A program made the position numbers and the translations under genes. The notes under the pieces were generated by a model that made no database searches, had not been told where the DNA came from, and worked only from the letters and a program-made list of their open reading frames with translations. Below, piece after piece: positions 61 to 52,894 of a stretch of 64,000 nucleotides of DNA. Every line of letters starts with the position of its first letter. Positions within the stretch are counted from its first letter, which is position 1. The stretch lies in the IMG/VR virus record IMGVR_UViG_3300042324_001267; one strand, 5' to 3'. The DNA is from a virus.

Positions 61-100
61 AGTTGCTAGTTACTAATCTATTTCGTATATTTAGGTATCA
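61..100 (+). promoter_or_regulatory. Putative early promoter (repeat copy 1)
   Basis: AGTTGCTAG..TTCGTATATTTAGGTATCA; TTG and TATATTT 20 nt apart; repeated upstream of many small genes. Confidence 0.8.
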
Positions 101-119
101 ATAATTAAAAAGATATATT

Positions 120-314
120 ATGAAAGACACAGTAAGAGATGTAATTGATTATTTTGATAAGGAATATCCTTATGTTGATTTAGGAATGTTGTCTGAGAAT
201 TCTATAAGTGAATTTTTAGTACAAGATTATATTAAGAATTTATCTTTTGAGAGAAAGATGGATTGTTTATATGACTATATTCTTTCTCAAGATTTATGTG
301 ATGTTCAAGAGTAA
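120..314 (+). CDS. Small acidic hypothetical early protein
   Basis: ORF directly downstream of the repeated promoter. Confidence 0.7.
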   Translation: MKDTVRDVIDYFDKEYPYVDLGMLSENSISEFLVQDYIKNLSFERKMDCLYDYILSQDLCDVQE

Positions 315-340
315 TTAATATTAATTTAAAAAATAAGACT

Positions 341-553
341 ATGACACAGTTAATGCAATCACATCCAGGAATGGTAGAAGAAGTAATCTCTATGTTAAGA
401 CATATGGAGATAGATGGAGAAACAATGCAACACATAATAGAGAGTGTTGGATTAGAAGATCAAATGACTAGGCAATTAATGTTTCTAGCTGATAGAGGCT
501 ATGTAGAAGACCTTTGGGATGAGATAGTAGAGTTGGAAAGAAGTAAAGATTAA
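341..553 (+). CDS. Small acidic hypothetical early protein
   Basis: ORF with A-rich leader, tightly packed. Confidence 0.7.
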   Translation: MTQLMQSHPGMVEEVISMLRHMEIDGETMQHIIESVGLEDQMTRQLMFLADRGYVEDLWDEIVELERSKD

Positions 554-600
554 AGTTGCTAGTTACAATTAAAGTTCATATATTTAGGTATCAATAATTA
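554..600 (+). promoter_or_regulatory. Putative early promoter (copy 2)
   Basis: AGTTGCTAGTTACAATTAAAGTTCATATATTTAGGTATCAATAATTA. Confidence 0.8.
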
Positions 601-613
601 AAACATATACATC

Positions 614-838
614 ATGGCTACATTAATCAAAGATCAAAAAGAAGTTACATTTGTACAAGGAGAGAGAGTTCAATTCTCTATGAGTAATAACGATGATAAT
701 TATTCTCCAAGTCGTAGAATAGTTTATGGAACAGTAGGGAATATAAACAAAGTCTCTATGATTGTTCAAGGAGTGGATGGAAATCTATATAGAGTAATGA
801 AGCATGAGGTTAAAAAATATATTGATCCTTTTGCATAA
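614..838 (+). CDS. Hypothetical early protein (possible SH3-like barrel)
   Basis: ORF after promoter; G-x-V pattern of short beta strands. Confidence 0.7.
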   Translation: MATLIKDQKEVTFVQGERVQFSMSNNDDNYSPSRRIVYGTVGNINKVSMIVQGVDGNLYRVMKHEVKKYIDPFA

Positions 839-841
839 AAT

Positions 842-880
842 AGTTGCTAGTTACAATTAAAGTTCTTATATTTAGGTATC
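842..880 (+). promoter_or_regulatory. Putative early promoter (copy 3)
   Basis: AGTTGCTAGTTACAATTAAAGTTCTTATATTTAGGTATC. Confidence 0.8.
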
Positions 881-915
881 AAAATTAATTAATCAATAAT
901 TAAAAACAAAACATT

Positions 916-1281
916 ATGAAAAAAGAATTCGTATTACAGTTAGTAGAAAATTCAGCATCTTCAATCTTTTCAAGAGAAGATGTTATTAAGCTTATCAATT
1001 CAGTTGAAGGAGGAGGAAGAGTAATCTCAGTAGATGATATTGAAAGAGCAATTGATAAAGTTATTAGTTGGGCTGATAATAATGAATCAGATGTTGTTGA
1101 CTTTGATTCAGTTGAGTTTGAATTAGCTTATAATAATAAGATTGAAGTAACTAATGTTCCTCTTCAATTGGAAAACTTAAGAGAAGCTTTAGAGAATAAC
1201 TTTATGGACTTTGGAGAAGCAGAAGAAGATGAAGATGTAGTTGAGCTAGAAAGAATTGATGAAGAAAGAGATGATGAATAA
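916..1281 (+). CDS. Highly acidic hypothetical early protein
   Basis: 121-aa ORF, D/E-rich C-terminus. Confidence 0.75.
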   Translation: MKKEFVLQLVENSASSIFSREDVIKLINSVEGGGRVISVDDIERAIDKVISWADNNESDVVDFDSVEFELAYNNKIEVTNVPLQLENLREALENNFMDFGEAEEDEDVVELERIDEERDDE

Positions 1282-1282
1282 A

Positions 1283-1322
1283 GGTTGCTAGTTACAAAGT
1301 TAATTCGTATATTTAGGTATCA
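1283..1322 (+). promoter_or_regulatory. Putative early promoter (copy 4)
   Basis: GGTTGCTAGTTACAAAGTTAATTCGTATATTTAGGTATCA. Confidence 0.8.
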
Positions 1323-1345
1323 TTAATAATTAAAACTATAACATC

Positions 1346-1555
1346 ATGGAAGATTTAAAACAATTTTTAGAAACATCGTTTAAAGGATTAGAGAGAGGAA
1401 TAGTTGCAACTCCAAAATCGAGAGAAGATCTAGAGTCATTTGCAAAAGCTAATCAAGGGTCAATGGATATTTTGTTAATGCAGATGGCTATGAACTTTGG
1501 CTATAAGATAGCATTAGAGAATGTTCAAGCTGTATTAGATAGTGAGGCAGCTTAG
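1346..1555 (+). CDS. Hypothetical early protein
   Basis: ORF after promoter. Confidence 0.7.
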   Translation: MEDLKQFLETSFKGLERGIVATPKSREDLESFAKANQGSMDILLMQMAMNFGYKIALENVQAVLDSEAA

Positions 1556-1789
1556 ATGAGTGAGCAATGTATAAAGGGTAAGTGGAAGTTAAGAGCTCCT
1601 AGTAAGCTTCCTAAGTCTTCTTACCCTATGGTAGGGATGGTCTATGAAGGAGTTGATAAGTTCTTTGGTAAGAGAACGATAGGAGTCTTAGTAGAGATGT
1701 TTGATCAGAACGATGAAGCAGTCTTAAGAGCAATAGATAATAAATTAATCTCAGTAGATATTAAATCATTAAAAGTAATCATAGTATGA
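1556..1789 (+). CDS. Hypothetical protein
   Basis: Abuts the upstream stop (TAG-ATG). Confidence 0.65.
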   Translation: MSEQCIKGKWKLRAPSKLPKSSYPMVGMVYEGVDKFFGKRTIGVLVEMFDQNDEAVLRAIDNKLISVDIKSLKVIIV

Positions 1790-1965
1790 CGATAGAGGTC
1801 ACAATACCACAAAGCATATTAAACACTTGTAGGGAGTGTGGATGGAATGAATTAGAAGCTGCAGAGTATTTTAATAAGTATCTTACTGAGGTAATCAATC
1901 ATCCTTATGGGCAATTTGAGCAAGACTTCGGAATGTGGCTAGAAGATTTAGAGGAAGAAAGTTAG
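1786..1965 (+). CDS. 59-aa acidic hypothetical protein (absent from ORF track)
   Basis: ATGA overlap with upstream gene; MTIEVTIPQSILNTCRECGWNE...WLEDLEEES*. Confidence 0.65.
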   Translation: MTIEVTIPQSILNTCRECGWNELEAAEYFNKYLTEVINHPYGQFEQDFGMWLEDLEEES

Positions 1966-1971
1966 TTAAAG

Positions 1972-2020
1972 AGTTGCTATCCTCAATAAGAGTTCTTATA
2001 TTTAGGTATCAATAATTAAA
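1972..2020 (+). promoter_or_regulatory. Putative early promoter (copy 5)
   Basis: AGTTGCTATCCTCAATAAGAGTTCTTATATTTAGGTATCAATAATTAAA. Confidence 0.8.
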
Positions 2021-2032
2021 ACAAGATACATT

Positions 2033-2281
2033 ATGACAAGAGAAGATTTTATTGCAGGAGTGGAGTTCGAGATTAAAGGCAATTACTTTAAGCTGGATAG
2101 GGATCAAAGATCTATTACAAAGGTCTTTAGAACATCTGATAGGAGTACAGTAGTAATGGAGGACTATCATATGAATGTAGAGAGGATAGGTAGAGTAAGA
2201 TTTGAAACCTATTCTTACATGCTAGGTAAGAGAGTAGATAGGAAGATTAGGTTTGAGGACCTAGAAGTTTTTAAGGGTTAG
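2033..2281 (+). CDS. Hypothetical early protein
   Basis: ORF between promoter and terminator. Confidence 0.7.
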   Translation: MTREDFIAGVEFEIKGNYFKLDRDQRSITKVFRTSDRSTVVMEDYHMNVERIGRVRFETYSYMLGKRVDRKIRFEDLEVFKG

Positions 2282-2303
2282 TCTTCGGACTAACTTTTTT
2301 TTT
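2277..2303 (+). terminator. Intrinsic terminator with UUCG tetraloop
   Basis: GTTAGTC-TTCG-GACTAAC followed by 9 T. Confidence 0.9.
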
Positions 2304-2310
2304 GACCGGT

Positions 2311-2354
2311 GGTCAAGGTGATGTCACGGTGAGGTCAAGTTGAGAGAAGTTTGA
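2311..2354. repeat. Imperfect 11-bp tandem repeats (iteron-like)
   Basis: GGTCAAGGTGA / TGTCACGGTGA / GGTCAAGTTGA / (GAGAAGTTTGA). Confidence 0.55.
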
Positions 2355-2646
2355 TAGTTAAGTTCCCTCAACGGGTAGCTACTCGGGTATCCGGAGCCAC
2401 ATAGAGTTGTATATTTCTGATGAAAATTGAGGTATGGGGGTATATATTTATATATACTACATAGCTTTAAGAGAGATGTTGTTATGGACCCAACCAATCC
2501 AATCCTAGTCCTTCCGAAGAAGAATTACTGCCCAAGGTGTCCTCTCTCTCAAGTTTGATCTATATAGCTGCTAAACCCTAGCACGGTTACCACCTATACC
2601 CCTAACCTACCTCTTATGTTGTATCTTATCAGATTTGTTTCTTATA

Positions 2647-2680
2647 TTTAATATAGAACCTTTTAGGTAATTTTCCAACT
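2647..2680 (-). promoter_or_regulatory. Possible reverse-strand early-type promoter
   Basis: Minus strand reads AGTTG-N20-TATATTAA, same spacing as the + strand copies. Confidence 0.4.
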
Positions 2681-2739
2681 ACCCCCAGTTTTTTTTCCGG
2701 AAAATTTTTCGTTATAGGTTAAGTATATATTTATATAAG

Positions 2740-3153
2740 ATGAAAAAGCTAAATAGCGATGATCTTTTCAATATATTTTCCATAGGAGATGAAGAGATTT
2801 ACAAAGAACACAAGATAGAGGATATGATGGATAATACCTTCATACTTTTTGGCATGGTTGTCAGAGGTGTGGAGAATTACTTCATTATAGACAAAATGTA
2901 TGCCAATAGATATCAGGAAAGGTATGGCTCCGTAAGAGAAAATATAAAGCTAAAGTACTTTAACGGCCTTGTAAATTACCTTGAGAGGGTTAAGGATATA
3001 AAGGCAGATACAGTAGAAGAGCTAAAGGATGAATTTGGTCCCCAGGCCATTAAATATGCTTTAGAAGAAATGCTTGAATTCTACAAAGAATTAGAGATGT
3101 ACGAGAAATGTGCAATTATTTTTAAGTTTTATGAACTTTTCTTTAAGAAATAG
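2740..3153 (+). CDS. Hypothetical protein
   Basis: 137-aa ORF; C-terminal E-x-YEKCA-x-I helix motif. Confidence 0.75.
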   Translation: MKKLNSDDLFNIFSIGDEEIYKEHKIEDMMDNTFILFGMVVRGVENYFIIDKMYANRYQERYGSVRENIKLKYFNGLVNYLERVKDIKADTVEELKDEFGPQAIKYALEEMLEFYKELEMYEKCAIIFKFYELFFKK

Positions 3154-3190
3154 TTGCTATAACCAATCTTTCTTCTTATATTTAGGTATA
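3152..3190 (+). promoter_or_regulatory. Putative early promoter (copy 6)
   Basis: AGTTGCTATAACCAATCTTTCTTCTTATATTTAGGTATA. Confidence 0.75.
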
Positions 3191-3213
3191 GAAATCAATT
3201 AAAAATAAAGGTT

Positions 3214-3417
3214 ATGTTAGTATCTATTTTAAACACAATTTTTTCGGTACCGTATTTAGTGGTAGGTGTGCTTATAGCAGCCTTGCTAGATATAGCAATT
3301 CACTACACAAAGGCTACTACCCGGTTTACTTTACTTGAAATATGGGGATGTGTGATGTGTTGGCCTGCAGTTCTTGTACTTCTGTTTTTTGCATTTATTT
3401 TCGGACAAAAAGAGTAA
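3214..3417 (+). CDS. Small membrane protein (2 TM)
   Basis: Two hydrophobic segments. Confidence 0.7.
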   Translation: MLVSILNTIFSVPYLVVGVLIAALLDIAIHYTKATTRFTLLEIWGCVMCWPAVLVLLFFAFIFGQKE

Positions 3418-3420
3418 ATT

Positions 3421-4053
3421 ATGTATAAAGATAAAATTAGTATGGCAGAGGCCATGTCCTTGGAATTAGTAGGAGAGATTACAATTGTTGATTCTTCACC
3501 AGAATCTGTTTTGGCTTACCCTAAAGTTGGTAAGAAATGGAAAGAAGCATTTATTGCTTTACAATCCAAATACAGACATGTATCTCCAGAAAAACTCCTT
3601 ACCTTTCTATCGGCAAAATATCTTATAGAGGTATCTGAAGGCATAGTAGATAAAGATACCAATACCTATTCCTGGAGATATTTCCATGGTATAGAGAATT
3701 CTAAGATAAAAGAGAAGTCTACAGACGATATCGAGTATGTTTACGTTCTGGTTAATCCCGGGTATACTTCCTTGGTTAAGATAGGAATGACCATTCATGA
3801 CGTTCCTAGGAGAGTCACGGCAATAAACGCTACAGCCACGGTTGAGGAATGGGTTCCGAAATTTGCTTTACCTTTGAAAAAGGGTACGGCTATGAGAGTA
3901 GAAAAAGCTGTTCATAAGCATTTTAGTTCCGTTAGGGTTTCTTCCGATAAAGGCGGTTCTAGAGAGTTTTTTAAAGTTACTCCTTTTGAGGCTTTTGATA
4001 AGATTCGTGAGGTAGGAGCATTGTTTACTGTAGGGGAATGTATAATTTATTAG
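3421..4053 (+). CDS. T5orf172/GIY-YIG-like domain protein
   Basis: YVYVLVNP..LVKIGMT..RR..VEKAVH..REFF motif set. Confidence 0.75.
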   Translation: MYKDKISMAEAMSLELVGEITIVDSSPESVLAYPKVGKKWKEAFIALQSKYRHVSPEKLLTFLSAKYLIEVSEGIVDKDTNTYSWRYFHGIENSKIKEKSTDDIEYVYVLVNPGYTSLVKIGMTIHDVPRRVTAINATATVEEWVPKFALPLKKGTAMRVEKAVHKHFSSVRVSSDKGGSREFFKVTPFEAFDKIREVGALFTVGECIIY

Positions 4054-4144
4054 AATATATAAGAAATCTTGCGAACTTAACAGGTGTCTGGGGAGGATAT
4101 ATAAAAATCTTGCGCGGCGATTCTTCGAAAATAACTTATAAAAT

Positions 4145-4182
4145 AGTTGCCCCTTCCCTTTTTTCTTCGTATATTTAGGTAC
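4145..4182 (+). promoter_or_regulatory. Putative early promoter (copy 7)
   Basis: AGTTGCCCCTTCCCTTTTTTCTTCGTATATTTAGGTAC. Confidence 0.75.
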
Positions 4183-34834: not shown

Positions 34835-35755
34835 ATGAGTAGTAATATATTATTAGGTTTTATAGAGAACGTTTTAGGAAAATCCCACAAAAGAGCTAGG
34901 GAGAACTATGCCTTTACCTGTCCAAAATGTAATCATCATAAGCCAAAGCTGGAAGTAAACCTGTATACTAATGAAAAAGGTGAGAATCCTTTCGAATGCT
35001 GGGTATGTGGCTTTAAAGGGCGTACAATTAAGTCTTTACTTAAACAACTACAAGTACCTGCCGAACAAGCGTATGAAATACTTAAATACGTAAGAAAAGG
35101 TGATGAAATAGGGTATGCACCTACATCTTCCGTAGAACTTCCTAAAGAGTTTCAAGCTCTGTATACAGCATCAACCACATCTATTATAGCAAATAAAGTA
35201 AGGAAATACCTCTATAAAAGAGGATTTACCGATAGAGACTTCTTAAAATACAACATAGGTTACTGTACTTCAGGAGAATACACAGGAAGAGTGATTGTTC
35301 CGTCATATAACGAGAACAACCAGTTAAACTTCTTTGTAGGTAGGACATTCGAAGATGCTTACCATAAATACAGAAATCCAGAGTGCTCTAAGGATATAAT
35401 AGGGTTTGAGAACCTAATCAATTGGTCACAACCTATAATCCTGGTAGAAGGGGTATTTGATGCAATAGCAGTAAAAAGAAACGCAGTACCAATACTCGGT
35501 AAGTCTTTATCAAAATCTTTGATAAAAAAGATAGTATCAAGTCAGGTAGAAGATATATACGTAGCCCTAGACAGGGATGCATTTAAAAAAGCACTCTCAT
35601 ACACAGAACAGTTTCTGAATATGGGAAAGAAAGTATATCTAGTAGATATGCAAGATAAGGATCCAAGCGATATGGGCTTTGCAAGCTTCACTCGTTATGT
35701 ACAACAGGCAGAGGAAATGGACTTCGGAAAGTTACTCCGCTACAAACTATCATAA
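34835..35755 (+). CDS. DNA primase (Zn-binding + TOPRIM)
   Basis: CPKC/CWVC Zn finger; ILVEGVFDA; VALDRDA; KDPSD. Confidence 0.85.
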   Translation: MSSNILLGFIENVLGKSHKRARENYAFTCPKCNHHKPKLEVNLYTNEKGENPFECWVCGFKGRTIKSLLKQLQVPAEQAYEILKYVRKGDEIGYAPTSSVELPKEFQALYTASTTSIIANKVRKYLYKRGFTDRDFLKYNIGYCTSGEYTGRVIVPSYNENNQLNFFVGRTFEDAYHKYRNPECSKDIIGFENLINWSQPIILVEGVFDAIAVKRNAVPILGKSLSKSLIKKIVSSQVEDIYVALDRDAFKKALSYTEQFLNMGKKVYLVDMQDKDPSDMGFASFTRYVQQAEEMDFGKLLRYKLS

Positions 35756-35756
35756 T

Positions 35757-36539
35757 ATGATACAAAAAGGACAGAATGTTTTGTCAGAACATGCTAAGAA
35801 GAGGTTAGATTTTAAACCTGAACTTAAGCAAATTAACTTCCTTGATAGGAGGGTTTATCAACGATCAGAAGGAGTATACTATCCTTCAGTTACTTCAATC
35901 TTACAGTACATGCCAAAGAATAAGTTCTTTGAAAGCTGGTTGAAAGATGTAGGACACAATTCAGACATTATAATGAGAAGAGCCGGAGATGAAGGTACTC
36001 AAACTCATAATGCAATTGAAGAGCTATTAGAAGGTAAAGAACTTACCTGGATGGATGATTACGGTAATGCCCGTTACAATGAATTGGTATGGGGAATGAT
36101 TATGAAGTTTAAAGAGTTCTGGGATGTAGCAAAACCCGTACTACTCTTTACAGAAGAGTTTACCTACTCAGATACTCACAAGTATGCCGGAACTGCCGAT
36201 ATAGTTGTATCGATGAATGGAGAGAATTGGCTTATTGACTTTAAGACATCAAATCATTTACATAAATCATATGACTTACAACTAGCAGCTTATGCTAAAT
36301 CAATCGAAGAAACAAAAGGTATTAAAATTGATAGAACAGCTATTCTTTGGTTGAAAGCATCAACTCGAGGAGCTGATAAAGCCGGGAAGAAGTTACAAGG
36401 TAAAGGATGGGAGTTAAAAGTGATTGATGATATAGAAAAGAACTTTGAATTATTCAAATTGATCTATAAATTATATGAACTTGAGCATCCAACAACAGAG
36501 CCGAAGTTTACATCATATCCAACCACTATCAAACTTTAG
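35757..36539 (+). CDS. PD-(D/E)XK exonuclease
   Basis: YPSVTSIL, GT..H..IE, YAGTAD, IDFKTS, QLAAY; ATG at 35757 preferred. Confidence 0.85.
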   Translation: MIQKGQNVLSEHAKKRLDFKPELKQINFLDRRVYQRSEGVYYPSVTSILQYMPKNKFFESWLKDVGHNSDIIMRRAGDEGTQTHNAIEELLEGKELTWMDDYGNARYNELVWGMIMKFKEFWDVAKPVLLFTEEFTYSDTHKYAGTADIVVSMNGENWLIDFKTSNHLHKSYDLQLAAYAKSIEETKGIKIDRTAILWLKASTRGADKAGKKLQGKGWELKVIDDIEKNFELFKLIYKLYELEHPTTEPKFTSYPTTIKL

Positions 36540-36560
36540 TACTATTTATTTAATATAATC

Positions 36561-36596
36561 GTTGGATAATCGAAAGAATATTCGTATATTTAGGTA
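36561..36596 (+). promoter_or_regulatory. Putative early promoter (copy 8)
   Basis: GTTGGATAATCGAAAGAATATTCGTATATTTAGGTA, same spacing as left-end copies. Confidence 0.7.
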
Positions 36597-36609
36597 AATA
36601 AAAAGTATA

Positions 36610-37518
36610 ATGGGAGGAAACGTATTCGATAGTACAGCACCGATAAAAAAAGAGCATATTAAACCAACTCTATTAGAGTTCTTTAAGCAGTTCAAAACTA
36701 TATTTCCAAAAGCAGAACCATTCTTTAGAGAGATGAAAACTCTAGGATCTGTAGGGAAAAAAGATTACTCAGGGGATATTGACCTAGCACTTGCCGGGTC
36801 ATCCTTTGATAATGTAGAGGATTGGGGTCTAGATGAGAAACACGTTCAAGACCTATTTGTAGGGTTTAAGAAAAGAGCTAGAACATCTTCTGATGATCAG
36901 CTAATGAAAAGAGCTGTAATTGTAGCAATAGCACAAAAGATAGCAGAAGCAGATACAGAGATTATAGCAGATGTAAAAGGATCTTCTGCAGGAGCTTTAT
37001 TTCTTCTATTTCCTCAATACGATGAGAATAACGAAGTAGTAGGACAAAACGTTCAAATAGATGTAAATGTAGGAGATGTAGATTGGTTACAATTTGCATA
37101 CCACTCAGCCACTTACTCAGGAAACGTAAAAGGGTTACATAGAACACAATTACTTGTATCTTTATTCTCTCAGAAAGGATATACATTCTCTCACAATTAT
37201 GGAGTAAAGGAGAAAGAATCACAAGAGATTGTAGCAAACACACCACAACAAGCAATAGACCTTCTAAATAAGTCATATGGCTTAAATTTAGATAGAGATA
37301 CAATAGGAGATTATTTTAAATTGATAGAAGTACTAGAAGCAGGACTATCCCCACAGGATTTAAACGCTGTATATGATACTTATCTTAAGATATTAGATAG
37401 CACTAGAGCAGATATACCAGAAGATCTACAGGCTTATTGGATAAAAAATCAAGAAAGATTAGGGTTAAAAGGTAAATTCTTACCGGATAATTCAAATTTA
37501 ACACAATATAAAGTATAA
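36610..37518 (+). CDS. Pol-beta-superfamily nucleotidyltransferase
   Basis: LGSVGKKDYSGDIDL (GS..DxD) and third acid in VQIDV. Confidence 0.7.
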   Translation: MGGNVFDSTAPIKKEHIKPTLLEFFKQFKTIFPKAEPFFREMKTLGSVGKKDYSGDIDLALAGSSFDNVEDWGLDEKHVQDLFVGFKKRARTSSDDQLMKRAVIVAIAQKIAEADTEIIADVKGSSAGALFLLFPQYDENNEVVGQNVQIDVNVGDVDWLQFAYHSATYSGNVKGLHRTQLLVSLFSQKGYTFSHNYGVKEKESQEIVANTPQQAIDLLNKSYGLNLDRDTIGDYFKLIEVLEAGLSPQDLNAVYDTYLKILDSTRADIPEDLQAYWIKNQERLGLKGKFLPDNSNLTQYKV

Positions 37519-37519
37519 T

Positions 37520-40240
37520 ATGTCAGGAGTAGCAGGAGGAAATAGAATAGAAAGAGGGGATGTACATAATACATTCAACAAATACGTAGAAGAAGTTCTA
37601 AGTAAAGTACCAGGCTTCAAGAAAGCTTCTCTATCTGGATCTGTAAAAGCAGGAACAAAAGCTGACTTTGGAGACTTAGATATTATTGTTTGGTTTGAAG
37701 GAGATGATAAGAGAGAGGTTAAACAAAGACTTATCGATGCAGCTCTAGCTCTTCCACAAAACATAATTGTACCTTTTAAATCAGAAAAATATACCGGAAG
37801 AAGGTATTATAACTCAGGTGAACTAATCTCAGTACTCTATCCAATTGTAGGAAAGGAAGATCAATATATTCAGGTTGATAATATTATATCTCTTACAGAA
37901 GAAGAACATGCCTTTAAAGGATCATTCTTAGACCTACCAGCTGAAAAGCAAGGACTGTTAATAGGGCTAGCAAAAGTAATTTTACTTGAGCAAGACCCAC
38001 AAGATGTATTCAGAAGAATGGGTATTTCAAATGTACCTAATCTAGAAAAAGGTGAAGAGTTTGAATTTAACCTATCATCGGTAAAACTATCTTTAAGAAA
38101 AGTAAAACTAGAAAACTTTAGAGAAATAGCAAGAGAAGAGGTATGGTCAACAACAGCTTGGGGTACTATTAAGATACTATTTAAAGGATTTAATATAGAC
38201 GGTTCTTTCGAAGACCTATTAGATGATGTTGCTAAAAAACTTACAAATGCTAGATCTAAAAATAGAATAGCAGGTATTTTTAAATCAATGGTATCTGTTA
38301 AATCAGGAGAAGTTGGAACAGCTAAAGGAAAAGGTAAAGAAGATGCATTAGAAAAAGTAGCACAAACACTTGCAGAAGCATTGGATGATGGATCCGAAGT
38401 AGTAGCTTTATATGCTGGAGGATTCAAACCACCACACCTTGCTCACTTTGAAAATGCCAAATTTCTATCTACTAAAGCAGACAAAATTGTAATATTTATC
38501 GGACCTAAGATCAGAGAAGGTGTAAAAATTACAGCAGAACAATCAAAAGCTATTTGGGAAATCTATGCAAAATACATAAACGTACCAATGGAGATTGTAA
38601 TCAGTAAAGTAACTCCAATATTAGATACATATGAATGGATTGATGCAAATCAAGACAAAGTAACAAGCATTATTACAGGAGCTATGGCTGATGAAATGGG
38701 TAAATTCTCTGGAATAGAAAAGAGAAAAGAAAAAGGTGAGTATAAGAATGTAGAAGTAAAAGAACTACCTGTTATTACAAATAAAGAAGACGATAAATTC
38801 TCAGCAACTGATATTAGAAAGTCAGAAAAGTTCTTATTAGAAGGCAAATGGATGCCAAAAGTAGTATCAAAAGAAGATAAGCAAGCAATCCTAGATATTA
38901 TAACTCCTCAAAAAGAAGATTCAGTAGAAGATAAAATGCTAACTGCAGTAGATAACGTATTTGAAAGTTTCTTTCCAAAGAAAACTAAAAAAGAAGTAAT
39001 ACAAGAAGGGTCAGCAGGAACACCTATACAGCCATCAGGAGCTATTCCATCAAAGGATAGAGAAAACTTAATACACCTCTTTAGCCAACTAAAATCAACT
39101 ATTAATTCAGAAAAGTATACAGTAGTATTTGAGCAAGATAGAATAGGAGTATACATAAAAACGTATGCAGATGTAAGCTTTGACCAAACACCTCAACAAA
39201 AAACACTACCAGAAGGAGCAGAGCAAGAAAAATTCGACTACACACCTTACATAGGATCTCTTTTAGAGTATATGTTAGATGAGAAGATGAATATTACACC
39301 GTTACCGGAAGTAAAAATCAGATATGACGAAGAACAAGCAAACGACTTCTTCGGTAAAACAGCTTACTATGATCCAAATAAGCAAGAAGTAGTATTATAT
39401 GTAATGAATAGACATCCAAAAGATGTCTGTAGATCATTCTCTCATGAAATGATTCACCATATGCAAAATATGGAAGGAAGACTTGAAGGATTAGCAGCTA
39501 CTACTAATACAAATGAAGACGATTACTTACAGGAAATAGAAAAAGAAGCTTACCTAAAGGGTAATATTACATTTAGAAACTGGGAAGACGGATTAAAAAG
39601 TAATAAAGAGGTTATGGCAGAAGGAAGATACGATAAAATTAGTAATCAAGCATCATCAGACTTGTTTAGAGGCTGGAAAGAAGCATTTAATGCAGGAGAA
39701 AAGAGTATAGGATTTGAAGAAACTTATTCAAATGGTGATGTAGAATTCGACGTAGAAGGTACTTTAGTACTAACACCAGGAACCGGTAAAATGGAAGTCT
39801 TAGAAAGTACAGGAGCAGGCTTTGACGAAGATGGAGATTTTATTATAGTAGATATCGCTATTGATCCAGAACTATTACCAGGCTTTTGGGAAGAGATTTC
39901 AATGACTTTAAAAGATCTTTTCAGACATGAAATTGAACACCTAACACATAATAAAGGAGGAGTATCTACAAATCCTTCTAAAATAATGAGAGGTGATTTA
40001 GCAAAAAGAGATAAGATAAGAGCAGGAGAAAAGCCAATAGGAGATTATTTTAAACTTAAAAAAGAAATAGATGCAAACCTACAGGGAATGTATTTTAGAG
40101 CTAAAAAAGAAAAAAGACCATTTGCAGATGTTGTAAATAGTTACTTAGATGCTCAAGATATTACACCTCAAGAAAGAGAGGAAATACTTACATTATGGCG
40201 TAACAGACTTCCTGCATTAGGATTAAAACAAACATTATAA
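37520..40240 (+). CDS. Multidomain protein: Pol-beta NTase + HxxH nucleotidyltransferase + two HExxH zincin-like domains
   Basis: SGSV..FGDLDII/IQVD; AGGFKPPHLAH...SATDIR; SHEMIHH; RHEIEH. Confidence 0.7.
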   Translation: MSGVAGGNRIERGDVHNTFNKYVEEVLSKVPGFKKASLSGSVKAGTKADFGDLDIIVWFEGDDKREVKQRLIDAALALPQNIIVPFKSEKYTGRRYYNSGELISVLYPIVGKEDQYIQVDNIISLTEEEHAFKGSFLDLPAEKQGLLIGLAKVILLEQDPQDVFRRMGISNVPNLEKGEEFEFNLSSVKLSLRKVKLENFREIAREEVWSTTAWGTIKILFKGFNIDGSFEDLLDDVAKKLTNARSKNRIAGIFKSMVSVKSGEVGTAKGKGKEDALEKVAQTLAEALDDGSEVVALYAGGFKPPHLAHFENAKFLSTKADKIVIFIGPKIREGVKITAEQSKAIWEIYAKYINVPMEIVISKVTPILDTYEWIDANQDKVTSIITGAMADEMGKFSGIEKRKEKGEYKNVEVKELPVITNKEDDKFSATDIRKSEKFLLEGKWMPKVVSKEDKQAILDIITPQKEDSVEDKMLTAVDNVFESFFPKKTKKEVIQEGSAGTPIQPSGAIPSKDRENLIHLFSQLKSTINSEKYTVVFEQDRIGVYIKTYADVSFDQTPQQKTLPEGAEQEKFDYTPYIGSLLEYMLDEKMNITPLPEVKIRYDEEQANDFFGKTAYYDPNKQEVVLYVMNRHPKDVCRSFSHEMIHHMQNMEGRLEGLAATTNTNEDDYLQEIEKEAYLKGNITFRNWEDGLKSNKEVMAEGRYDKISNQASSDLFRGWKEAFNAGEKSIGFEETYSNGDVEFDVEGTLVLTPGTGKMEVLESTGAGFDEDGDFIIVDIAIDPELLPGFWEEISMTLKDLFRHEIEHLTHNKGGVSTNPSKIMRGDLAKRDKIRAGEKPIGDYFKLKKEIDANLQGMYFRAKKEKRPFADVVNSYLDAQDITPQEREEILTLWRNRLPALGLKQTL

Positions 40241-40253
40241 AAATAAAAAGGTT

Positions 40254-40841
40254 ATGGGAAAATTAGCAGACTTATTACTAGAAGAATCAGACTTCATGCC
40301 TAAATATCAGATATATTGTGATATGGATGGAGTATTAACAGACTTTGAAAAGAGATTTGTTACATTATTACAACAAGAAGGTCCAAAGTACTATTCAAAA
40401 GCGACAATTGCTCAAGTAACAAGGCCTAAACACTTTGATAAACTAGAAGGAACAGAAGAGTTTTGGAAGTTTATTGATCAGTATATTGGATTAGAGTTCT
40501 GGTCAGAAATGGAATGGATGCCAAATGGTAGAGAGTTATGGAACTTTATACAACCATACGGACCAAAACTTTTAACATCTCCTTCCAGAGACAATACCTC
40601 AAGACTTGGTAAAAGATTATGGGTAAAAGAAAACCTAGTACCTGCCCCTGAAGTCTTATTTAGGTTTGGAGATGCTAAGTCGGATTTTGCAAATGAAAAT
40701 GCTATATTAATAGACGATAAGCCTTCCAACCTCGCTGCATTTTCTGCTAAAGGAGGAATAGCAATAGAGGTAAAAGACGGAGAAATACAATCGGTTATTA
40801 ATAAATTAAAACAACTTGGTTATGGGCGAGAGCTTACTTAA
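40254..40841 (+). CDS. HAD-family 5'(3')-nucleotidase-like phosphatase
   Basis: CDMDGVLTDF, LTSP, GK..W, LIDD. Confidence 0.8.
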   Translation: MGKLADLLLEESDFMPKYQIYCDMDGVLTDFEKRFVTLLQQEGPKYYSKATIAQVTRPKHFDKLEGTEEFWKFIDQYIGLEFWSEMEWMPNGRELWNFIQPYGPKLLTSPSRDNTSRLGKRLWVKENLVPAPEVLFRFGDAKSDFANENAILIDDKPSNLAAFSAKGGIAIEVKDGEIQSVINKLKQLGYGRELT

Positions 40842-41810: not shown

Positions 41811-42125
41811 ATGAAGCTACTACAACTATTAAAAGAAGCAAAAGAGGTATTAGAAGACTTCGCTAAAACCAGAGGAGAAGGTGCAGCTAAAATAGCATCA
41901 AATGCTCAAGAAAAAGGAGGACTTGCTTTGCTAACCTGGCATCATTTCAAAGTAAAAGCTCCGTATTATAAAAAAGCTTCTGAAGGAAAGCTTGATATGG
42001 AACAAGCAAAGAAAGAGTACGAAGAGACTTATAAAAAGATCTCTCTAGATATGACTCAAATTGAATTTCAAAGAGAGGTAGGAAGACTAGAAGTACTAGG
42101 AGAATTGCTAATAAAGAATAAATAA
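41811..42125 (+). CDS. Leader-bearing hypothetical protein
   Basis: MKLLQLLKEAK. Confidence 0.65.
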   Translation: MKLLQLLKEAKEVLEDFAKTRGEGAAKIASNAQEKGGLALLTWHHFKVKAPYYKKASEGKLDMEQAKKEYEETYKKISLDMTQIEFQREVGRLEVLGELLIKNK

Positions 42126-42769
42126 TGTCAACACTAAATACATCTATACCTCACTTCTATGCTAAGATGAGAATAGAACACCTCTACCAGCATGACGGGA
42201 GAGAAGGTATGCAAGATGTAATAGTATTTGGAGCACAATCTGTAGGAGGTAGAGCTCTTACCTTCCATATAATGACTGATGAAGGAGCTGTTAGATCAAG
42301 AGTTCCAATTCATATGCTTGCCTGGAAAGATGATGCACCAAAAATGGCTTTAGACCATTTACAACTATGGGATTGTTTTGGACATGAAGTATCATGTACA
42401 GCATACGATTACTTACTCCAATCAAGAGTAAAGGCAATATTTAAAGACGGTAGTAAAGAGTGGGGAAATTATATTATGACCTTTGATTGGTTTAATAATC
42501 CATATTCTAACGAACCAACACAATACAAGGCAGCACATCTAATTAAATTAGATAACGGAAATTTTACTCTTCAGCCTAATAATAGATTAATGTGGAGAGA
42601 TATGTCTTTTGTAACTCAACCATTTCCTGAAAAACCGGATTGGATGATTGATAATAAAGAGTGGTTTTGCGAATCAGTTTCCGATAAATGGACAATGGAA
42701 AAAGGTAATGAAAATATTTACTACTACACTTTAGAAAATGAAAAAAAGTCAACTAAAAAAGATAATTAA
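42125..42769 (+). CDS. Hypothetical protein
   Basis: 214-aa aromatic-rich ORF (LQLWDCF, QPNNR). Confidence 0.7.
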   Translation: MSTLNTSIPHFYAKMRIEHLYQHDGREGMQDVIVFGAQSVGGRALTFHIMTDEGAVRSRVPIHMLAWKDDAPKMALDHLQLWDCFGHEVSCTAYDYLLQSRVKAIFKDGSKEWGNYIMTFDWFNNPYSNEPTQYKAAHLIKLDNGNFTLQPNNRLMWRDMSFVTQPFPEKPDWMIDNKEWFCESVSDKWTMEKGNENIYYYTLENEKKSTKKDN

Positions 42770-52315: not shown

Positions 52316-52894
52316 ATGAACAATTTATTAGTAAATGTAACTCCTTTCAAAGGAATGCTTACCGAATCAAAGGCTAAACCCGGAGTATTCGAAGTAACAG
52401 GCATTATGCAGAGAGCAGGAGCTAAGAATCAAAACGGAAGAATCTACAAAAGAGAAATTCTTGAAGAAGAAGTAAAAAATTATGTAGAGAATTTTGTTAA
52501 GATAGGAAATGCATACGGAGAATTAGATCATCCAGAATCAGCAATTGTCTCTTTAAAAAACGCATCACACGTTGTAAAAGACTTATGGTGGGATGGAGAT
52601 GACTTGATGGGTAAAGTTGAATTACTAAATACACCCTCAGGAAATATCGTAAAAGAAATATTAAGAGGAGGACATACAATTGGAATCTCTTCAAGAGGAA
52701 CAGGATCAGTATCACAAACCAATGAAGGAACTTTAATGGTACAGGATGATTTTGAATTAGTATGTTGGGATTTCGTTTCTAATCCATCAACACAAGGAGC
52801 TTTTATGAATCCAATTTCACTAAACGAAGGAAAACAATCAGTAGGAAAATACGATAGATTAGATTCTATTATTAACAATATATTAAGAGCATAA
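52316..52894 (+). CDS. Prohead protease (T4 gp21-like)
   Basis: NQNGRIY, GELDHP, ASH, GISSRGTG, DFVSNPS. Confidence 0.95.
   Translation: MNNLLVNVTPFKGMLTESKAKPGVFEVTGIMQRAGAKNQNGRIYKREILEEEVKNYVENFVKIGNAYGELDHPESAIVSLKNASHVVKDLWWDGDDLMGKVELLNTPSGNIVKEILRGGHTIGISSRGTGSVSQTNEGTLMVQDDFELVCWDFVSNPSTQGAFMNPISLNEGKQSVGKYDRLDSIINNILRA

What the first reader, a model, noticed from the sequence alone, without database searches (positions are those of the whole stretch)
36561..40841. Nucleotide-chemistry cluster: two Pol-beta NTases, an HxxH NTase and a HAD phosphatase
Seen: adjacent genes with GS..DxD..D catalytic motifs (36610; N-terminus of 37520), a Rossmann HxxH domain and a HAD enzyme, behind the only clear early-type promoter in mid-window. 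Known: Pol-beta NTases include CCA-adding, CD-NTase and MenT-type toxin enzymes, and HxGH enzymes include NMNAT/PPAT. Inference: a possible counter-defence or host-takeover module (tRNA-end repair, protein NMPylation, NAD or second-messenger manipulation). The substrate cannot be read from the sequence.
Basis: partly seen in the sequence, partly recalled or inferred. Interest (0 to 1): 0.7.

Follow-up and report, generated by a model that had tools for sequence, protein, structure and literature searches.

The report
Split multi-enzyme polyvalent protein of phage
Three adjacent genes of this T4-type Flavobacterium phage are pieces of one widely shuffled enzyme array (two polymerase-X-like transferases, an NMNAT/PPAT-like transferase, two zinc-protease-like domains and a deoxynucleotidase) whose modules are separated by sites that fit the phage's head protease, so the enzymes may be packed into the capsid and delivered with the DNA.

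Summary
ORF-A (36610-37518), ORF-B (37520-40240) and ORF-C (40254-40841) carry the stated motifs, and these are conserved in relatives clustered at 50% identity.

Folds place ORF-A and the ORF-B N-terminus nearest family-X DNA polymerases (palm plus thumb, like ASFV Pol X). CD-NTase, MenT and terminal uridylyl/poly(A) transferase folds score lower; no CCA-adding enzyme was among the rows shown. The HxxH domain is equally close to PPAT and NMNAT, so the GenBank name "NMNAT/NadR" on the relative immuto gp088 is over-specific. ORF-C is an NT5C-type deoxynucleotidase.

The three genes are one unit. In other phages A is fused to D1, and C is fused behind D4. In 80 metagenomic loci the order is kept, always after primase and exonuclease. 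Other family members add ART-PolyVal, Maf, RegB-like and FMN-reductase domains.

Every module begins just after [LIVMF]-x-E, the T4 gp21-type cleavage pattern, and the window encodes an S77 head protease.

Best reading, at about 0.5: a new phage-only branch of "polyvalent" proteins, cut at module boundaries and probably capsid-delivered. Packaging, cleavage and substrates are inferred, not shown. The scan had already noted the protease-site idea on this same ORF (e1-5837341).

The parts
36542..36549 (+). CTATTTAT intergenic motif, a candidate late-type promoter core. The same motif lies upstream of the portal gene and of w43226, w45800, w50259 and w58069.
   Evidence: Nine of the 12 plus-strand copies lie in the 5.2% of the window that is intergenic (p = 5e-10). 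The motif is conserved upstream of ORF-A in relatives. A promoter function is inferred.
36561..36596 (+). Promoter-like element GTTGG-N19-TTCGTATATTTAGGTA, of the same type as seven elements in the small-gene array at 62-4181.
   Evidence: 8 matches against 0 expected; conserved upstream of ORF-A in most loci with layout (i). 'Early' timing is inferred and was not measured.
36610..37518 (+). ORF-A, 302 aa. Module A is a family-X-polymerase-like nucleotidyltransferase (palm plus thumb) with G46-S47, D56, D58, D151 and the motif K174-G-L-H-R-T-Q180.
   Evidence: AF2 model, pLDDT 89.8. Foldseek: Pol beta/lambda, E 1e-5 over about 220 columns. VIA: Pol beta Z 9.4, ASFV Pol X Z 9.3 with 159 of 176 residues aligned. 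Invariant residues. 1788 metagenomic homologues and no Pfam or PHROG family.
37520..38377 (+). ORF-B module D1 (aa 1-286). A second family-X-like nucleotidyltransferase and distant paralogue of A, with G40-S41, D52, D54 and D120. It ends at T-L-A-E286|A.
   Evidence: AF2 pLDDT 88. Foldseek: Pol lambda, E 8e-7. VIA: TdT Z 11.9, ASFV Pol X Z 10.9 with 163 of 176 aligned. hhalign A against D1: probability 88.8%, E 2.5e-6. Homologues reach Pfam DNA_pol_B_palm.
38378..39007 (+). ORF-B module D2 (aa 287-496). A HIGH-superfamily (HxGH) nucleotidyltransferase, PPAT/NMNAT-like, with H306, H309 and S428-x-T-x-x-R433. It ends at V-I-Q-E496|G in a disordered linker.
   Evidence: VIA: NadM 2qjt Z 13.5, M. 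jannaschii NMNAT Z 13.1 with 149 of 164 aligned, PPAT Z 12.3. Profile against PDB: PPAT 1.2e-5, NaMNAT 1e-4, NMNAT 5e-4. CTP_transf_like matched in 48 of 113 homologues scanned.
39008..39622 (+). ORF-B module D3 (aa 497-701). A zincin-like metallopeptidase-type domain with H642-E-M-I-H646 plus E674 and E676. It ends at V-M-A-E701|G.
   Evidence: HExxH in 126/126 homologues, E674 and E676 in 124/124. Model topology matches the zincin core: helix, three strands, HExxH helix, Glu helix (description in PMC5512222). Recurrent sub-threshold Pfam hits in homologues fall on D3: DUF6782 (best 3.2e-7), M91, M78, M76, SprT. BFVD lists IrrE-like proteins, but no model range was given. D3 was not folded or searched on its own.
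39623..40240 (+). ORF-B module D4 (aa 702-906). A second HExxH domain (R802-H-E-I-E-H807) of no recognised family. It starts at G-R-Y-D.
   Evidence: HExxH in 90/90 homologues. The HExxH lies in helix 790-810, after a five-strand sheet. No Pfam match. Only motif-level similarity to D3. The fold is unassigned.
40254..40841 (+). ORF-C, 195 aa. An NT5C-type HAD 5'(3')-deoxyribonucleotidase (D23-M-D25-G-V-L-T-D) with an N-terminal leader-like peptide, MGKLADLLLEE.
   Evidence: Pfam NT5C 7e-7, above the cut-off; phrog_2643 2e-22. Fused behind D4 in at least 24 of 150 representatives. Adjacent to or fused with D4 in nearly all of 80 loci.
52316..52894 (+). T4 gp21-type prohead core serine protease (S77). 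It is the candidate enzyme for cutting the [LIVMF]-x-E sites. It lies outside the finding.
   Evidence: Pfam Peptidase_S77 2.5e-35. Any link to ORF-A, ORF-B or ORF-C is inferred.
34835..36539 (+). Conserved upstream neighbours: a DnaG-type primase (34835-35755) and a PD-(D/E)XK exonuclease (probable start 35757, end 36539).
   Evidence: phrog_47 1.5e-42 and phrog_298 4.9e-43. The same order is kept in all 19 diverse relatives inspected that retain upstream DNA. In layout (ii) the exonuclease stop overlaps the D2 start.

Best explanation
ORF-A, ORF-B and ORF-C are the split form of one modular 'polyvalent' enzyme array found only in a large clade of uncultured T4-type phages.

Its modules are:
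- two paralogous family-X-polymerase-like nucleotidyltransferases (A, D1);
- a HIGH-superfamily nucleotidyltransferase (D2);
- a zincin-like HExxH domain (D3) and a second HExxH domain of unassigned fold (D4);
- an NT5C-type deoxynucleotidase (C).

All modules keep intact catalytic motifs, so they are probably active enzymes. That inference rests on motif conservation only.

Each module is preceded by [LIVMF]-x-E followed by a small residue. This is the recognition pattern of T4 gp21-type head proteases, and the phage encodes one. The proposed mechanism has four steps:
1. The proteins are made from tandem promoter-like elements.
2. They are taken into the prohead.
3. The head protease cuts them into single enzymes.
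4. They are released into the host with the DNA and act on nucleotides or on nucleic-acid ends before phage genes are expressed. T4 Alt and the T4 internal proteins are delivered in the same way.

Shown here: the domain identities, motif conservation, fusion and synteny, the junction pattern, and the presence of the protease. Inferred: cleavage, packaging, injection, and every substrate.
For: Domain folds.

Catalytic conservation.

Fusion evidence. A is fused to D1 in 6 proteins, and A replaces D1 in A-D2-D3 proteins. C is fused behind D4 in 24 or more of 150 representatives.

Synteny. 80 IMG/VR loci at 37-94% identity keep the order [A | D1-]D2-D3-D4 | C. In the 20 diverse loci inspected, the array sits after primase and exonuclease wherever upstream DNA is present, and before w40816.

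Polyvalent character. Module order is shuffled and proteins reach 1580 aa. Other members carry ART-PolyVal (2), MPTase-PolyVal (1), DUF6782/M91/M78 peptidase hits, Maf, FMN_red, RegB_T4 and DUF6934. The concept, and the zincin domain as its hub, come from PMC5512222.

Junction pattern. [LIVMF]-x-E directly precedes A (6/6 fused cases) and D1 (6/6). It precedes D4 in 72 of 79 motif hits, with otherwise variable upstream sequence. It precedes most D3 starts and most C starts. The background rate of the tripeptide is 1.9% per position. Stand-alone A and D1 start M-GGN and M-SGxAGGN, so removal of the initial Met (assumed, because G or S follows it) would give the same N-terminus as cleavage.

Leaders. 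Many D2-first proteins carry a leader MNxLxKxLxxxxLxE, and the same peptide recurs inside proteins at D1/D2 junctions.

Protease and head genes. The S77 protease, gp23-type capsid protein and portal are in the window. The capsid protein and scaffold N-termini carry the same sites. T4-type head proteases cut after Glu, and T4 capsid-targeting leaders exist (PMC5694885).

Promoters. A motif shared with head genes lies just upstream of ORF-A.

Distribution. The family is absent from isolate bacterial genomes and appears only in 15 MAG contigs.
Against: - ORF-A and ORF-B themselves have no N-terminal leader. How they would enter the prohead is unexplained.
- No virion proteome exists for immuto or any relative, so packaging and cleavage are untested.
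- The dedicated promoter-like element at 36561-36596 matches the array in front of small, presumably early genes.
- In layout (ii) the gene is translationally coupled to primase and exonuclease. Both of these points fit a cytoplasmic replication or metabolism role.
- The [LIVMF]-x-E residues could be part of the domains' own N-terminal caps. The homologues are related, so the counts are not independent.
- The fold of D4 is unassigned, and the peptidase nature of D3 rests on motif, topology and sub-threshold profile hits.
- The polyvalent-protein paper proposes self-processing by the zincin domains, not cutting by a head protease.
Confidence: 0.5

Rival explanations
1. The array is a cytoplasmic replication, repair and nucleotide-pool module, serving a genome in which G is fully replaced by a 7-deazaguanine.

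On this reading the two Pol-X-like enzymes fill gaps or tail DNA ends next to the primase and exonuclease. The NT5C enzyme removes an unwanted canonical dNMP such as dGMP. D2 makes an adenylylated cofactor. The [LIVMF]-x-E sites are only linker features.
For: The primase-exonuclease-array order is invariant wherever upstream DNA is present, and in layout (ii) the genes are translationally coupled.

The element at 36561-36596 is of the type seen before small early-looking genes.

The relative immuto replaces all G by fdPreQ1 (PMC10516641). A DpdA3 homologue is present in immuto and in all four near-complete relatives searched.

ASFV Pol X, one of the closest structural matches (Z 10.9 for D1, 9.3 for ORF-A), is a minimal repair polymerase. 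That, and the existence of phage dNMP nucleotidases in phages that replace a base, are my own knowledge and were not tested here.
Against: This reading does not explain the domain shuffling, the ART-PolyVal, RegB-like or Maf partners, or the two HExxH domains.

It does not explain why the same tripeptide sits at six unrelated junction types, or the leader peptides.

The co-occurrence with DpdA lies within a single lineage, so it is not independent evidence.

The array is far from the replication and queuosine gene block of immuto, which occupies 1-40 kb.
Confidence: 0.3
2. ORF-B is an NAD+ salvage enzyme, NMNAT/NadR, as immuto gp088 is annotated. It would rebuild NAD+ against NAD-depleting host defences.
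For: D2 superposes best on NadM and on archaeal NMNAT (Z 13.5 and 13.1). The HxGH and SxTxxR motifs are present. Phage NadM/NadR-NadV salvage is known (PMC9503650).
Against: NCBIfam NMNAT models score 16.7 bits against a cut-off of 127, and 12.6 against 181.

The D2 profile is closer to PPAT (1.2e-5) than to NMNAT (5e-4), and PPAT scores Z 12.3 in the fold search.

Half of the homologues have TxGH, as PPAT does (the PPAT comparison is my own knowledge).

The immuto genome has no NadV/NAPRTase, and the protein has no Nudix or kinase partner.

D2 is only about 20% of ORF-B.
Confidence: 0.1
3. The array is processed, but by its own HExxH domains D3 and D4, as proposed for polyvalent proteins in general. 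The head protease plays no part. Cleavage could then happen in the cytoplasm or after delivery.
For: The zincin domain is the hub of polyvalent proteins and is predicted to release neighbouring domains (PMC5512222). The catalytic HExxH and Glu residues of D3 and D4 are invariant.
Against: A-D1 fusion proteins carry the same junction sites but have no D3 or D4 (P0180, P0195, P0197).

The site [LIVMF]-x-E is the textbook specificity of T4 gp21-type proteases (my own knowledge; cutting after Glu is confirmed in PMC5694885).

The same sites occur in the capsid protein and scaffold of this phage.
Confidence: 0.1

Closest known systems
Polyvalent proteins of phages and conjugative elements (Iyer, Burroughs, Anand, de Souza, Aravind 2017; PMC5512222)
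   Same: Several unrelated enzymatic domains sit in one polypeptide and their order is shuffled freely. One or more zincin-like HExxH domains are interspersed. Nucleotide-metabolism domains are present. ART-PolyVal and MPTase-PolyVal profile hits occur in family members. The family is restricted to mobile elements.
   Different: The term searches run in that paper found no Pol-X-like, NT5C or HIGH-transferase domains. Its Pol-beta NTases are minimal versions from Firmicutes elements. Here the array is often split into adjacent genes. The junctions carry head-protease-type sites rather than relying only on zincin self-processing. None of the profiles reaches its threshold on the window's own protein.
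T4 internal proteins and Alt (capsid-targeting leader, cleavage by gp21, injection with the DNA)
   Same: The phage is T4-type, with an S77 protease, a gp23-type capsid protein and a gp20-type portal. Sites of the form [LIVMF]-x-E followed by a small residue are present. Short amphipathic N-terminal leaders ending in such a site are found on ORF-C and on many homologues. The cargo is enzymatic, as with Alt.
   Different: There is no sequence similarity to IPI-III or Alt. Several enzymes are strung into polyproteins with internal sites and internal leader copies. ORF-A and ORF-B lack a leader. Packaging has not been demonstrated.
African swine fever virus Pol X and cellular family-X polymerases (Pol beta, lambda, mu, TdT)
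   Same: The palm-plus-thumb architecture is shared. D1 aligns 163, and ORF-A 159, of the 176 residues of ASFV Pol X. The GS motif and three catalytic Asp are present. Like ASFV Pol X, these modules have no fingers or 8-kDa domain.
   Different: Sequence identity is 11-16%. The window's own proteins fail the Pfam thresholds. ORF-A has an inserted helical segment between the DxD motif and the third Asp. Both modules have about 60 extra C-terminal helical residues. Polymerase activity and the substrate (DNA, RNA or other) are unknown.
HIGH-superfamily adenylyltransferases: PPAT (CoaD), NMNAT (NadM, NadR, archaeal) and NaMNAT (NadD)
   Same: The Rossmann-like fold is shared, with Z 12-13.5 over about 150 residues. 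The (H/T)xGH and SxTxxR motifs are present.
   Different: D2 reaches no family-specific threshold. It sits equally close to PPAT and NMNAT. It has no pathway partner: no NadV, Nudix or kinase. It is embedded in a multi-domain protein.
NT5C family 5'(3')-deoxyribonucleotidases (Pfam PF06941; phrog_2643)
   Same: ORF-C scores above the Pfam cut-off. It has the DMDGV(L)xD motif I and the expected length.
   Different: It carries a leader-like N-terminal peptide. In many relatives it is the C-terminal module of the polyvalent protein.

Membership tests
Family X DNA polymerases | Palm with a GS motif and three catalytic carboxylates | tested here: met
   ORF-A: G46-S47, D56, D58, D151. D1: G40-S41, D52, D54, D120. 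These are conserved in homologues.
Family X DNA polymerases | Thumb subdomain following the palm, giving a Pol-X-wide structural match | tested here: met
   Predicted models only. About 160-180 residues align to Pol beta, Pol lambda, TdT and ASFV Pol X, with Z 9-12. The next classes, TUTase and PAP, align about 100 residues, at Z about 9 for D1 and 7.2 or less for ORF-A.
Family X DNA polymerases | Fingers and 8-kDa (HhH, dRP-lyase) domains | tested here: not met
   Both modules begin at the palm (model residue 1 to about 9 aligns to Pol beta 142-152) and nothing lies upstream. ASFV Pol X lacks these domains too.
Family X DNA polymerases | Family profile reached at its curated threshold | tested here: inconclusive
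   The window's ORF-B scores only NTP_transf_2 at 15.4 bits against a cut-off of 21, and ORF-A matches nothing. Homologues do reach DNA_pol_B_palm, for example P0144 at 25.5 against 25, and 14 of 113 members match at E up to 0.01.
Family X DNA polymerases | Template-directed or terminal nucleotide addition to a primer | not testable with these tools
   This needs an enzyme assay.
NMN adenylyltransferase (NadM/NadR/archaeal NMNAT) | HxGH and SxTxxR motifs on a HIGH-superfamily fold | tested here: met
   H306, H309 and S428-T430-R433. Z 13.5 and 13.1 to NadM and NMNAT. These features are shared by the whole superfamily.
NMN adenylyltransferase (NadM/NadR/archaeal NMNAT) | Equivalog or subfamily model above its cut-off | tested here: not met
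   NF002243 scores 16.7 bits against 127. TIGR01527 scores 12.6 against 181.2. In the profile search PPAT ranks above NMNAT.
NMN adenylyltransferase (NadM/NadR/archaeal NMNAT) | Salvage partner (NadV) or a fused Nudix or kinase domain | tested here: not met
   The 160-kb immuto genome has no NAPRTase match, while the control search rang in 9 of 14 genomes. ORF-B has no Nudix or kinase domain.
Polyvalent proteins (PMC5512222) | Two or more biochemically disparate domains in one polypeptide, with variable architectures | tested here: met
   ORF-B has four domains of three different kinds. 150 representatives show many orders and inserts, up to 1580 aa.
Polyvalent proteins (PMC5512222) | Zincin-like metallopeptidase hub domain (HExxH helix plus a downstream Glu helix on a helix and three-strand core) | tested here: inconclusive
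   D3 has the motif and the topology. Its homologues give recurrent but sub-threshold peptidase profile hits. D3 and D4 could not be folded and searched on their own.
Polyvalent proteins (PMC5512222) | Co-occurrence with signature PolyVal domains | tested here: met
   ART-PolyVal in 2 of 52 members (best E 2.2e-5) and MPTase-PolyVal in 1 of 61 (E 0.002). The numbers are low.
Polyvalent proteins (PMC5512222) | Packaged in the virion and delivered with the DNA | not testable with these tools
   There are only context hints. The array lies between the tail and head gene blocks, and a motif shared with head genes sits upstream.
T4-type capsid-internal, gp21-processed proteins | The phage encodes an S77 prohead protease | tested here: met
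   Window 52316-52894, Peptidase_S77 2.5e-35.
T4-type capsid-internal, gp21-processed proteins | Cleavage motif hydrophobic-x-Glu at the processed boundaries | tested here: met
   Present at six junction types across the family. In ORF-B the sites are E286, E496 and E701, at or beside low-confidence linkers. Cleavage itself was not shown.
T4-type capsid-internal, gp21-processed proteins | N-terminal capsid-targeting leader | tested here: not met
   ORF-A starts MGGN and ORF-B starts MSGVAGGN, with no leader. ORF-C (MGKLADLLLEE) and many D2-first homologues do have a leader-like peptide.
NT5C 5'(3')-deoxyribonucleotidase | Pfam PF06941 above its cut-off and HAD motif I DxDxV | tested here: met
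   29.7 bits against 24.8. D23-M-D25-G-V. phrog_2643 2.4e-22.
   CD-NTases score Z 8.5-8.6 for D1 and 4.6-5.7 for ORF-A. MenT1 scores 5.7 for ORF-A. Each aligns about 100 residues and ranks below Pol X at Z 9-12. No CCA-adding enzyme was among the rows shown. PADLOC gave no match.

The most novel reading that the evidence does not exclude
A T4-type phage lineage packs a protease-processed toolkit of nucleotide enzymes into its capsid. The toolkit includes two minimal Pol-X-type polymerases or terminal transferases, an adenylyltransferase and a deoxynucleotidase, and it is injected with the DNA. This would be the first case of co-injected Pol-X-like enzymes. They would act on the ends or gaps of the incoming 7-deazaguanine genome, or on host nucleic acids and nucleotide signals, before any phage gene is expressed. 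It would also be a new polyprotein mode of loading capsid cargo.
Probability: 0.25. Interest if true: 0.8.

Novelty: new variant of a known kind. Interest (0 to 1): 0.62.

Why it matters
The family is large: 2949 representatives of 50%-identity clusters for ORF-B and 1788 homologues for ORF-A. It has no Pfam or PHROG family of its own, and among cultured phages it is found in only one genus.

If the modules are cut and delivered as proposed, three things follow. The range of enzymes a phage brings into the cell would grow beyond ADP-ribosyltransferases and restriction inhibitors, to polymerase-like and nucleotide-pool enzymes. Polyvalent proteins could be processed by the head protease. Junction pattern plus leader would give a sequence rule for finding capsid cargo in metagenomes.

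Even on the rival reading, the work corrects a misleading GenBank name ("NMNAT, NadR"). It also points to candidate helpers for complete G replacement, whose mechanism is still open (PMC10516641).

Tried and rejected
- The sigma-70 promoter and terminator scan was uninformative: 39 sites against 48 expected. It is also the wrong model for a Bacteroidota host.
- BLASTP of ORF-A against D1 found nothing. Only profile comparison showed the relationship.
- PDB sequence searches with the single proteins gave chance-level hits only.
- PADLOC gave no match. NCBIfam gave only sub-threshold NMNAT hits. PHROGs gave nothing for ORF-A or ORF-B.
- tblastn against 50,697 phage records found only the immuto strains. 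Even at E up to 1 the only addition was a 35-residue match in Synechococcus phage S-SRM01.
- BFVD lists cyanophage 'cytidyltransferase-like' proteins of S-PM2 and S-RIM2 as structural matches. No paper was found under that name.
- The search for related loci with the gappy alignment A1 failed. A3 worked.
- Pfam TGT did not detect DpdA3 in relatives. A direct protein search did.
- D3 against D4 by hhalign gave motif-level similarity only, probability 23%, so I do not call them paralogues.
- No whole genome is held for the window. immuto was used as a proxy.
- A LicD/fukutin-type phosphotransferase reading of A and D1 was considered. No such chain appeared among the top fold matches, so it was dropped.

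Full report
**What the window is.** The window is 85% identical in DNA to Flavobacterium phage vB_FspM_immuto, a 160-kb Baltic myovirus. It encodes T4-type head genes: large terminase at 46772, gp20-type portal at 48376, an S77 prohead protease at 52316-52894 and a gp23-type capsid protein at 54707. All genes around the finding are on the plus strand.

**Checking the observation.** The three ORFs are as described:
- ORF-A, 36610-37518, 302 aa.
- ORF-B, 37520-40240, 906 aa. Its start lies one base after the ORF-A stop.
- ORF-C, 40254-40841, 195 aa.

The motifs are present:
- ORF-A: G46-S47, D56-x-D58, D151.
- ORF-B: G40-S41, D52-x-D54, D120, then GGFKPPH306LAH309 and S428-A-T-D-I-R433.
- ORF-C: D23-M-D25-G-V.

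The window's own proteins are poorly covered by libraries. ORF-A matches nothing in Pfam, PHROGs, NCBIfam or PADLOC. ORF-B gives only sub-threshold NTP_transf_2 and CTP_transf_like hits. ORF-C passes NT5C and phrog_2643.

**The promoter claim.** GTTG-N(19-20)-TATATTTAGGTA occurs eight times in the window. Seven copies lie in the small-gene array at 62-4181 and one lies at 36561-36596, with none expected by chance. The element is conserved upstream of ORF-A in most relatives that have ORF-A.

Immediately upstream, at 36542-36549, is a second motif, CTATTTAT. Nine of its twelve plus-strand copies are intergenic (p = 5e-10). They precede the portal gene and w43226, w45800, w50259 and w58069. ORF-A therefore sits behind two different promoter-like elements. 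Calling them 'early' and 'late' is inference.

**Domain identities.** The AlphaFold2 model of ORF-B has mean pLDDT 88. Low-confidence linkers lie at 465-475, 484-507 and 695-699, with a loop at 549-568.

- **D1 (aa 1-286)** matches family-X polymerases. Foldseek gives Pol lambda at 8e-7 over about 218 columns. VIA-align gives TdT Z 11.9, Pol beta Z 11.6 and ASFV Pol X Z 10.9, the last with 163 of 176 residues aligned at 3.0 Å. Poly(A) and uridylyl transferases and CD-NTases reach Z about 8.5-9 with about 105 residues aligned.
- **ORF-A** (model pLDDT 89.8) behaves the same way. Its nine best chains are all family X: Pol beta 9.4, ASFV Pol X 9.3 with 159 of 176 aligned, TdT 9.2. TUTases follow at 7.2 or less, then CdnG 5.7, MenT1 5.7 and OAS1 5.3.
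- **A and D1 are distant paralogues.** BLASTP sees nothing. hhalign gives 88.8% probability, E 2.5e-6, over the N-terminal strand, helix and GS-DxD segment. Both begin with a conserved GGN(V/R)(F/I) strand.
- **D2 (about aa 290-465)** is a HIGH-superfamily transferase. NadM scores Z 13.5, M. jannaschii NMNAT Z 13.1 (149 of 164 aligned) and PPAT Z 12.3. A family profile scores PPAT 1.2e-5, NaMNAT 1e-4 and NMNAT 5e-4.
- **D3** has the zincin core as described in PMC5512222: helix 575-587, three strands 597-627, the HExxH helix 633-651 and a helix 668-693 carrying E674 and E676. Its homologues give recurrent sub-threshold hits to DUF6782, M91, M78, M76 and SprT-like, and these fall on D3.
- **D4** has an invariant RHE(I/L)EH in helix 790-810, after a five-strand sheet. 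It has no family match, and I leave its fold unassigned.

**Conservation.** Across representatives of 50%-identity clusters the catalytic positions are essentially invariant:
- D1: D52 and D54 64/64; D120 66/67.
- D2: H309 107/111; position 306 H 55 and T 54; R433 81 of about 92.
- D3: H642, E643 and H646 126/126; E674 and E676 124/124.
- D4: H803, E804 and H807 90/90.
- ORF-C: D23 and D25 23/23.
- ORF-A: all eight fused homologues keep its motifs.

**The three genes are one unit.** A search of 1.84 billion representatives with ORF-B gave 2949 hits at E up to 1e-3. Mapping the window's modules onto the best 150 shows free shuffling. D1, D2, D3 and D4 occur alone, in other orders, duplicated, and separated by unknown inserts, in proteins of up to 1580 aa.

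- ORF-A is itself a module of this family. It is fused directly upstream of D1 in six proteins, the same order as in the window. It replaces D1 in two A-D2-D3 proteins.
- ORF-C is fused behind D4 in at least 24 representatives.
- In 80 IMG/VR loci, at 37-94% identity on D3-D4, there are two layouts: (i) A | D1-D2-D3-D4 | C, as in the window, and (ii) D2-D3-D4 | C, or all four fused. C follows D4 in nearly every locus that extends far enough.
- In 20 diverse loci inspected, the neighbours are conserved: primase and exonuclease upstream wherever upstream DNA is present, w40816 and w43226 downstream, then the terminase.

So the core is D2-D3-D4-C, and A with D1 is an accessory pair. The pair arrives with its own promoter region. 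Layout (ii) has no gap after the exonuclease gene.

**Polyvalent character.** Other members carry ART-PolyVal (2 of 52, E 2.2e-5), MPTase-PolyVal (1 of 61), Maf (1.9e-8), FMN_red (4.6e-13), RegB_T4, MTPAP-like palm, DUF6934 (7 members) and a methyltransferase. BFVD structural neighbours are large uncultured-phage proteins that also carry SET, AAA, amidoligase, ParB or LysM domains.

This is the pattern described for polyvalent proteins, in which a zincin-like peptidase is the hub domain (PMC5512222). The term searches run in that paper found no Pol-X-like, NT5C-type or HIGH-superfamily domains. The Pol-beta NTases it describes are minimal versions from Firmicutes elements.

The family is absent from isolate bacterial genomes. 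Among 185,579 species genomes there are only 15 hits, all on MAG contigs with scattered taxonomic labels. Among cultured phages only immuto has it.

**Junction pattern.** After I saw the fused junctions, an earlier first-reader note of this scan on the same ORF (e1-5837341) suggested protease sites, and I tested that idea. [LIVMF]-x-E immediately precedes:
- module A in 6 of 6 fused cases (INE, IHE, INE, LVE, LTE, INE | GGN);
- module D1 in 6 of 6 (LNE, LNE, LNE, LKE, LTE, LNE | SGxAGGN);
- module D4 in 72 of 79 G(R/K)YD hits, with unrelated sequence further upstream;
- most D3 starts (...VIQE | GSAGTP);
- most C starts (...LP(V/I/L)FE | ...).

The tripeptide's background density in this window is 1.9% per position.

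When A or D1 opens a protein, it starts M-GGN or M-SG(S/V)AGGN. After removal of the first Met, the N-terminus would be the same as after cleavage. This is inference; Met removal is assumed because G or S follows.

Many D2-first proteins carry a 13-15 residue leader, MNxL(T/V)KxL(I/V)xxxLxE. The same peptide recurs inside proteins at D1/D2 junctions.

In ORF-B the sites are TLAE286|A, VIQE496|G and VMAE701|G, at or beside the low-confidence linkers. ORF-B ends exactly where fused relatives have the D4/C site. ORF-C opens with MGKLADLLLEE.

Cutting after Glu in an x-x-E motif is the known behaviour of T4 gp21 and its giant-phage relatives, and T4 internal proteins use a capsid-targeting leader (PMC5694885). 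The L/I preference at P3 is my own knowledge.

The window's scaffold (MSNKDLLKQAIAE|A) and capsid protein (MELNQLFE|G, and more sites within the first 60 residues) carry the same sites. N-terminal sites at residues 7-17 are enriched among the window's ORFs: 26 of 72 against 19% expected, p = 6e-4.

**Reading.** The best-supported picture is a polyvalent enzyme array whose modules are released by cleavage at [LIVMF]-x-E. The most likely protease is the S77 head protease, which would imply loading into the prohead and delivery with the DNA.

Points against this picture:
- ORF-A and ORF-B have no leader.
- One upstream element matches the type seen before early-looking genes.
- Layout (ii) is coupled to primase and exonuclease.
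- No proteome exists.
- The homologues are related, so the counts are not independent.

I put about 0.9 on 'one modular array of active enzymes', about 0.6 on processing, and about 0.45 on packaging and injection. The combined statement gets 0.5.

**Rivals.**
1. *A cytoplasmic replication, repair and nucleotide-pool role.* immuto replaces every G by fdPreQ1 (PMC10516641). A DpdA3 homologue is present in immuto and in all four near-complete relatives searched, covering both layouts. A Pol-X-type gap filler and a dNMP nucleotidase would fit such a genome. This reading explains neither the shuffling, nor the PolyVal partners, nor the junction pattern.
2. *NAD+ salvage by an NMNAT, as annotated.* This fails the family thresholds. 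D2 is no closer to NMNAT than to PPAT. No NadV is present.
3. *Self-processing by D3 and D4.* This is possible, but A-D1 fusions have the same sites without any HExxH domain.

**Limits.**
- No genome is held for the window.

Noticed in passing
window 9475, 33150, 36542, 41414, 43176, 45774, 48351, 50233, 58050: The motif CTATTTAT, often in the form ACTATTTATAA, lies 12-70 nt upstream of the portal gene, w50259, w45800, w43226, w58069 and other genes. Nine of its 12 plus-strand copies are intergenic (p = 5e-10). It is a candidate late-promoter core of this phage, distinct from the GTTG...TATATTTAGGTA element.
   Followed up: partly
window 33292-54707 (N-termini of many ORFs): Short amphipathic N-terminal peptides ending in [LIVMF]-x-E are enriched among the window's ORFs: 26 of 72 against 19% expected. 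Examples are MKKSQLKKIIKE, MKLLQLLKE, MKRSEVLKAIQE and the scaffold MSNKDLLKQAIAE. They cluster around the head genes and the small ORFs flanking this array, which suggests many capsid-targeted proteins.
   Followed up: partly
L001 / NC_055915.1 gp088, gp100, gp082: Several GenBank product names in the relative immuto look over-specific. These include 'nicotinamide mononucleotide adenylyltransferase, NadR' for the 907-aa multi-domain protein, 'NAD synthetase' for a 145-aa protein and 'TiaS' for a 104-aa protein. Only the first was tested here, and it is not supported.
   Followed up: partly
L108 34089-34883 (immuto DpdA3) and records G001, G003, G004, G005: A DpdA3 homologue (29-74% identity) is present in all four near-complete relatives searched. 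The whole clade probably carries 7-deazaguanine DNA. Pfam TGT (PF01702) fails to detect these proteins.
   Followed up: partly
L110-L124 (genome contigs): All 15 hits in species-representative genomes are MAG contigs. They are labelled Microbacteriaceae, Woesearchaeota, Pelagibacter, Legionellales, Arcobacter and others. These are most likely phage contigs mis-binned into MAGs, so the labels should not be read as hosts.
   Followed up: no
P0195, P0197, P0250 (N-terminal about 200 aa): A second, different HIGH-type transferase module, with the motif IYPGRFQPFxxHH as in archaeal NMNAT, is fused upstream of A-D1. A HIGH transferase is therefore paired with Pol-X-like modules in two independent architectures.
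   Followed up: no
window 34835-35755 and 35757-36539: The primase opens with MSSNILLGFIE and the exonuclease, from its probable ATG at 35757, with MIQKGQNVLSE. Both contain an early [LIVMF]-x-E. This may be chance, and I did not pursue it.
   Followed up: no
window 42125-42769: This 214-aa protein matches phrog_3704 ('ferredoxin', 7e-48) but has no Pfam family. It is conserved in some relatives downstream of the array.
   Followed up: no
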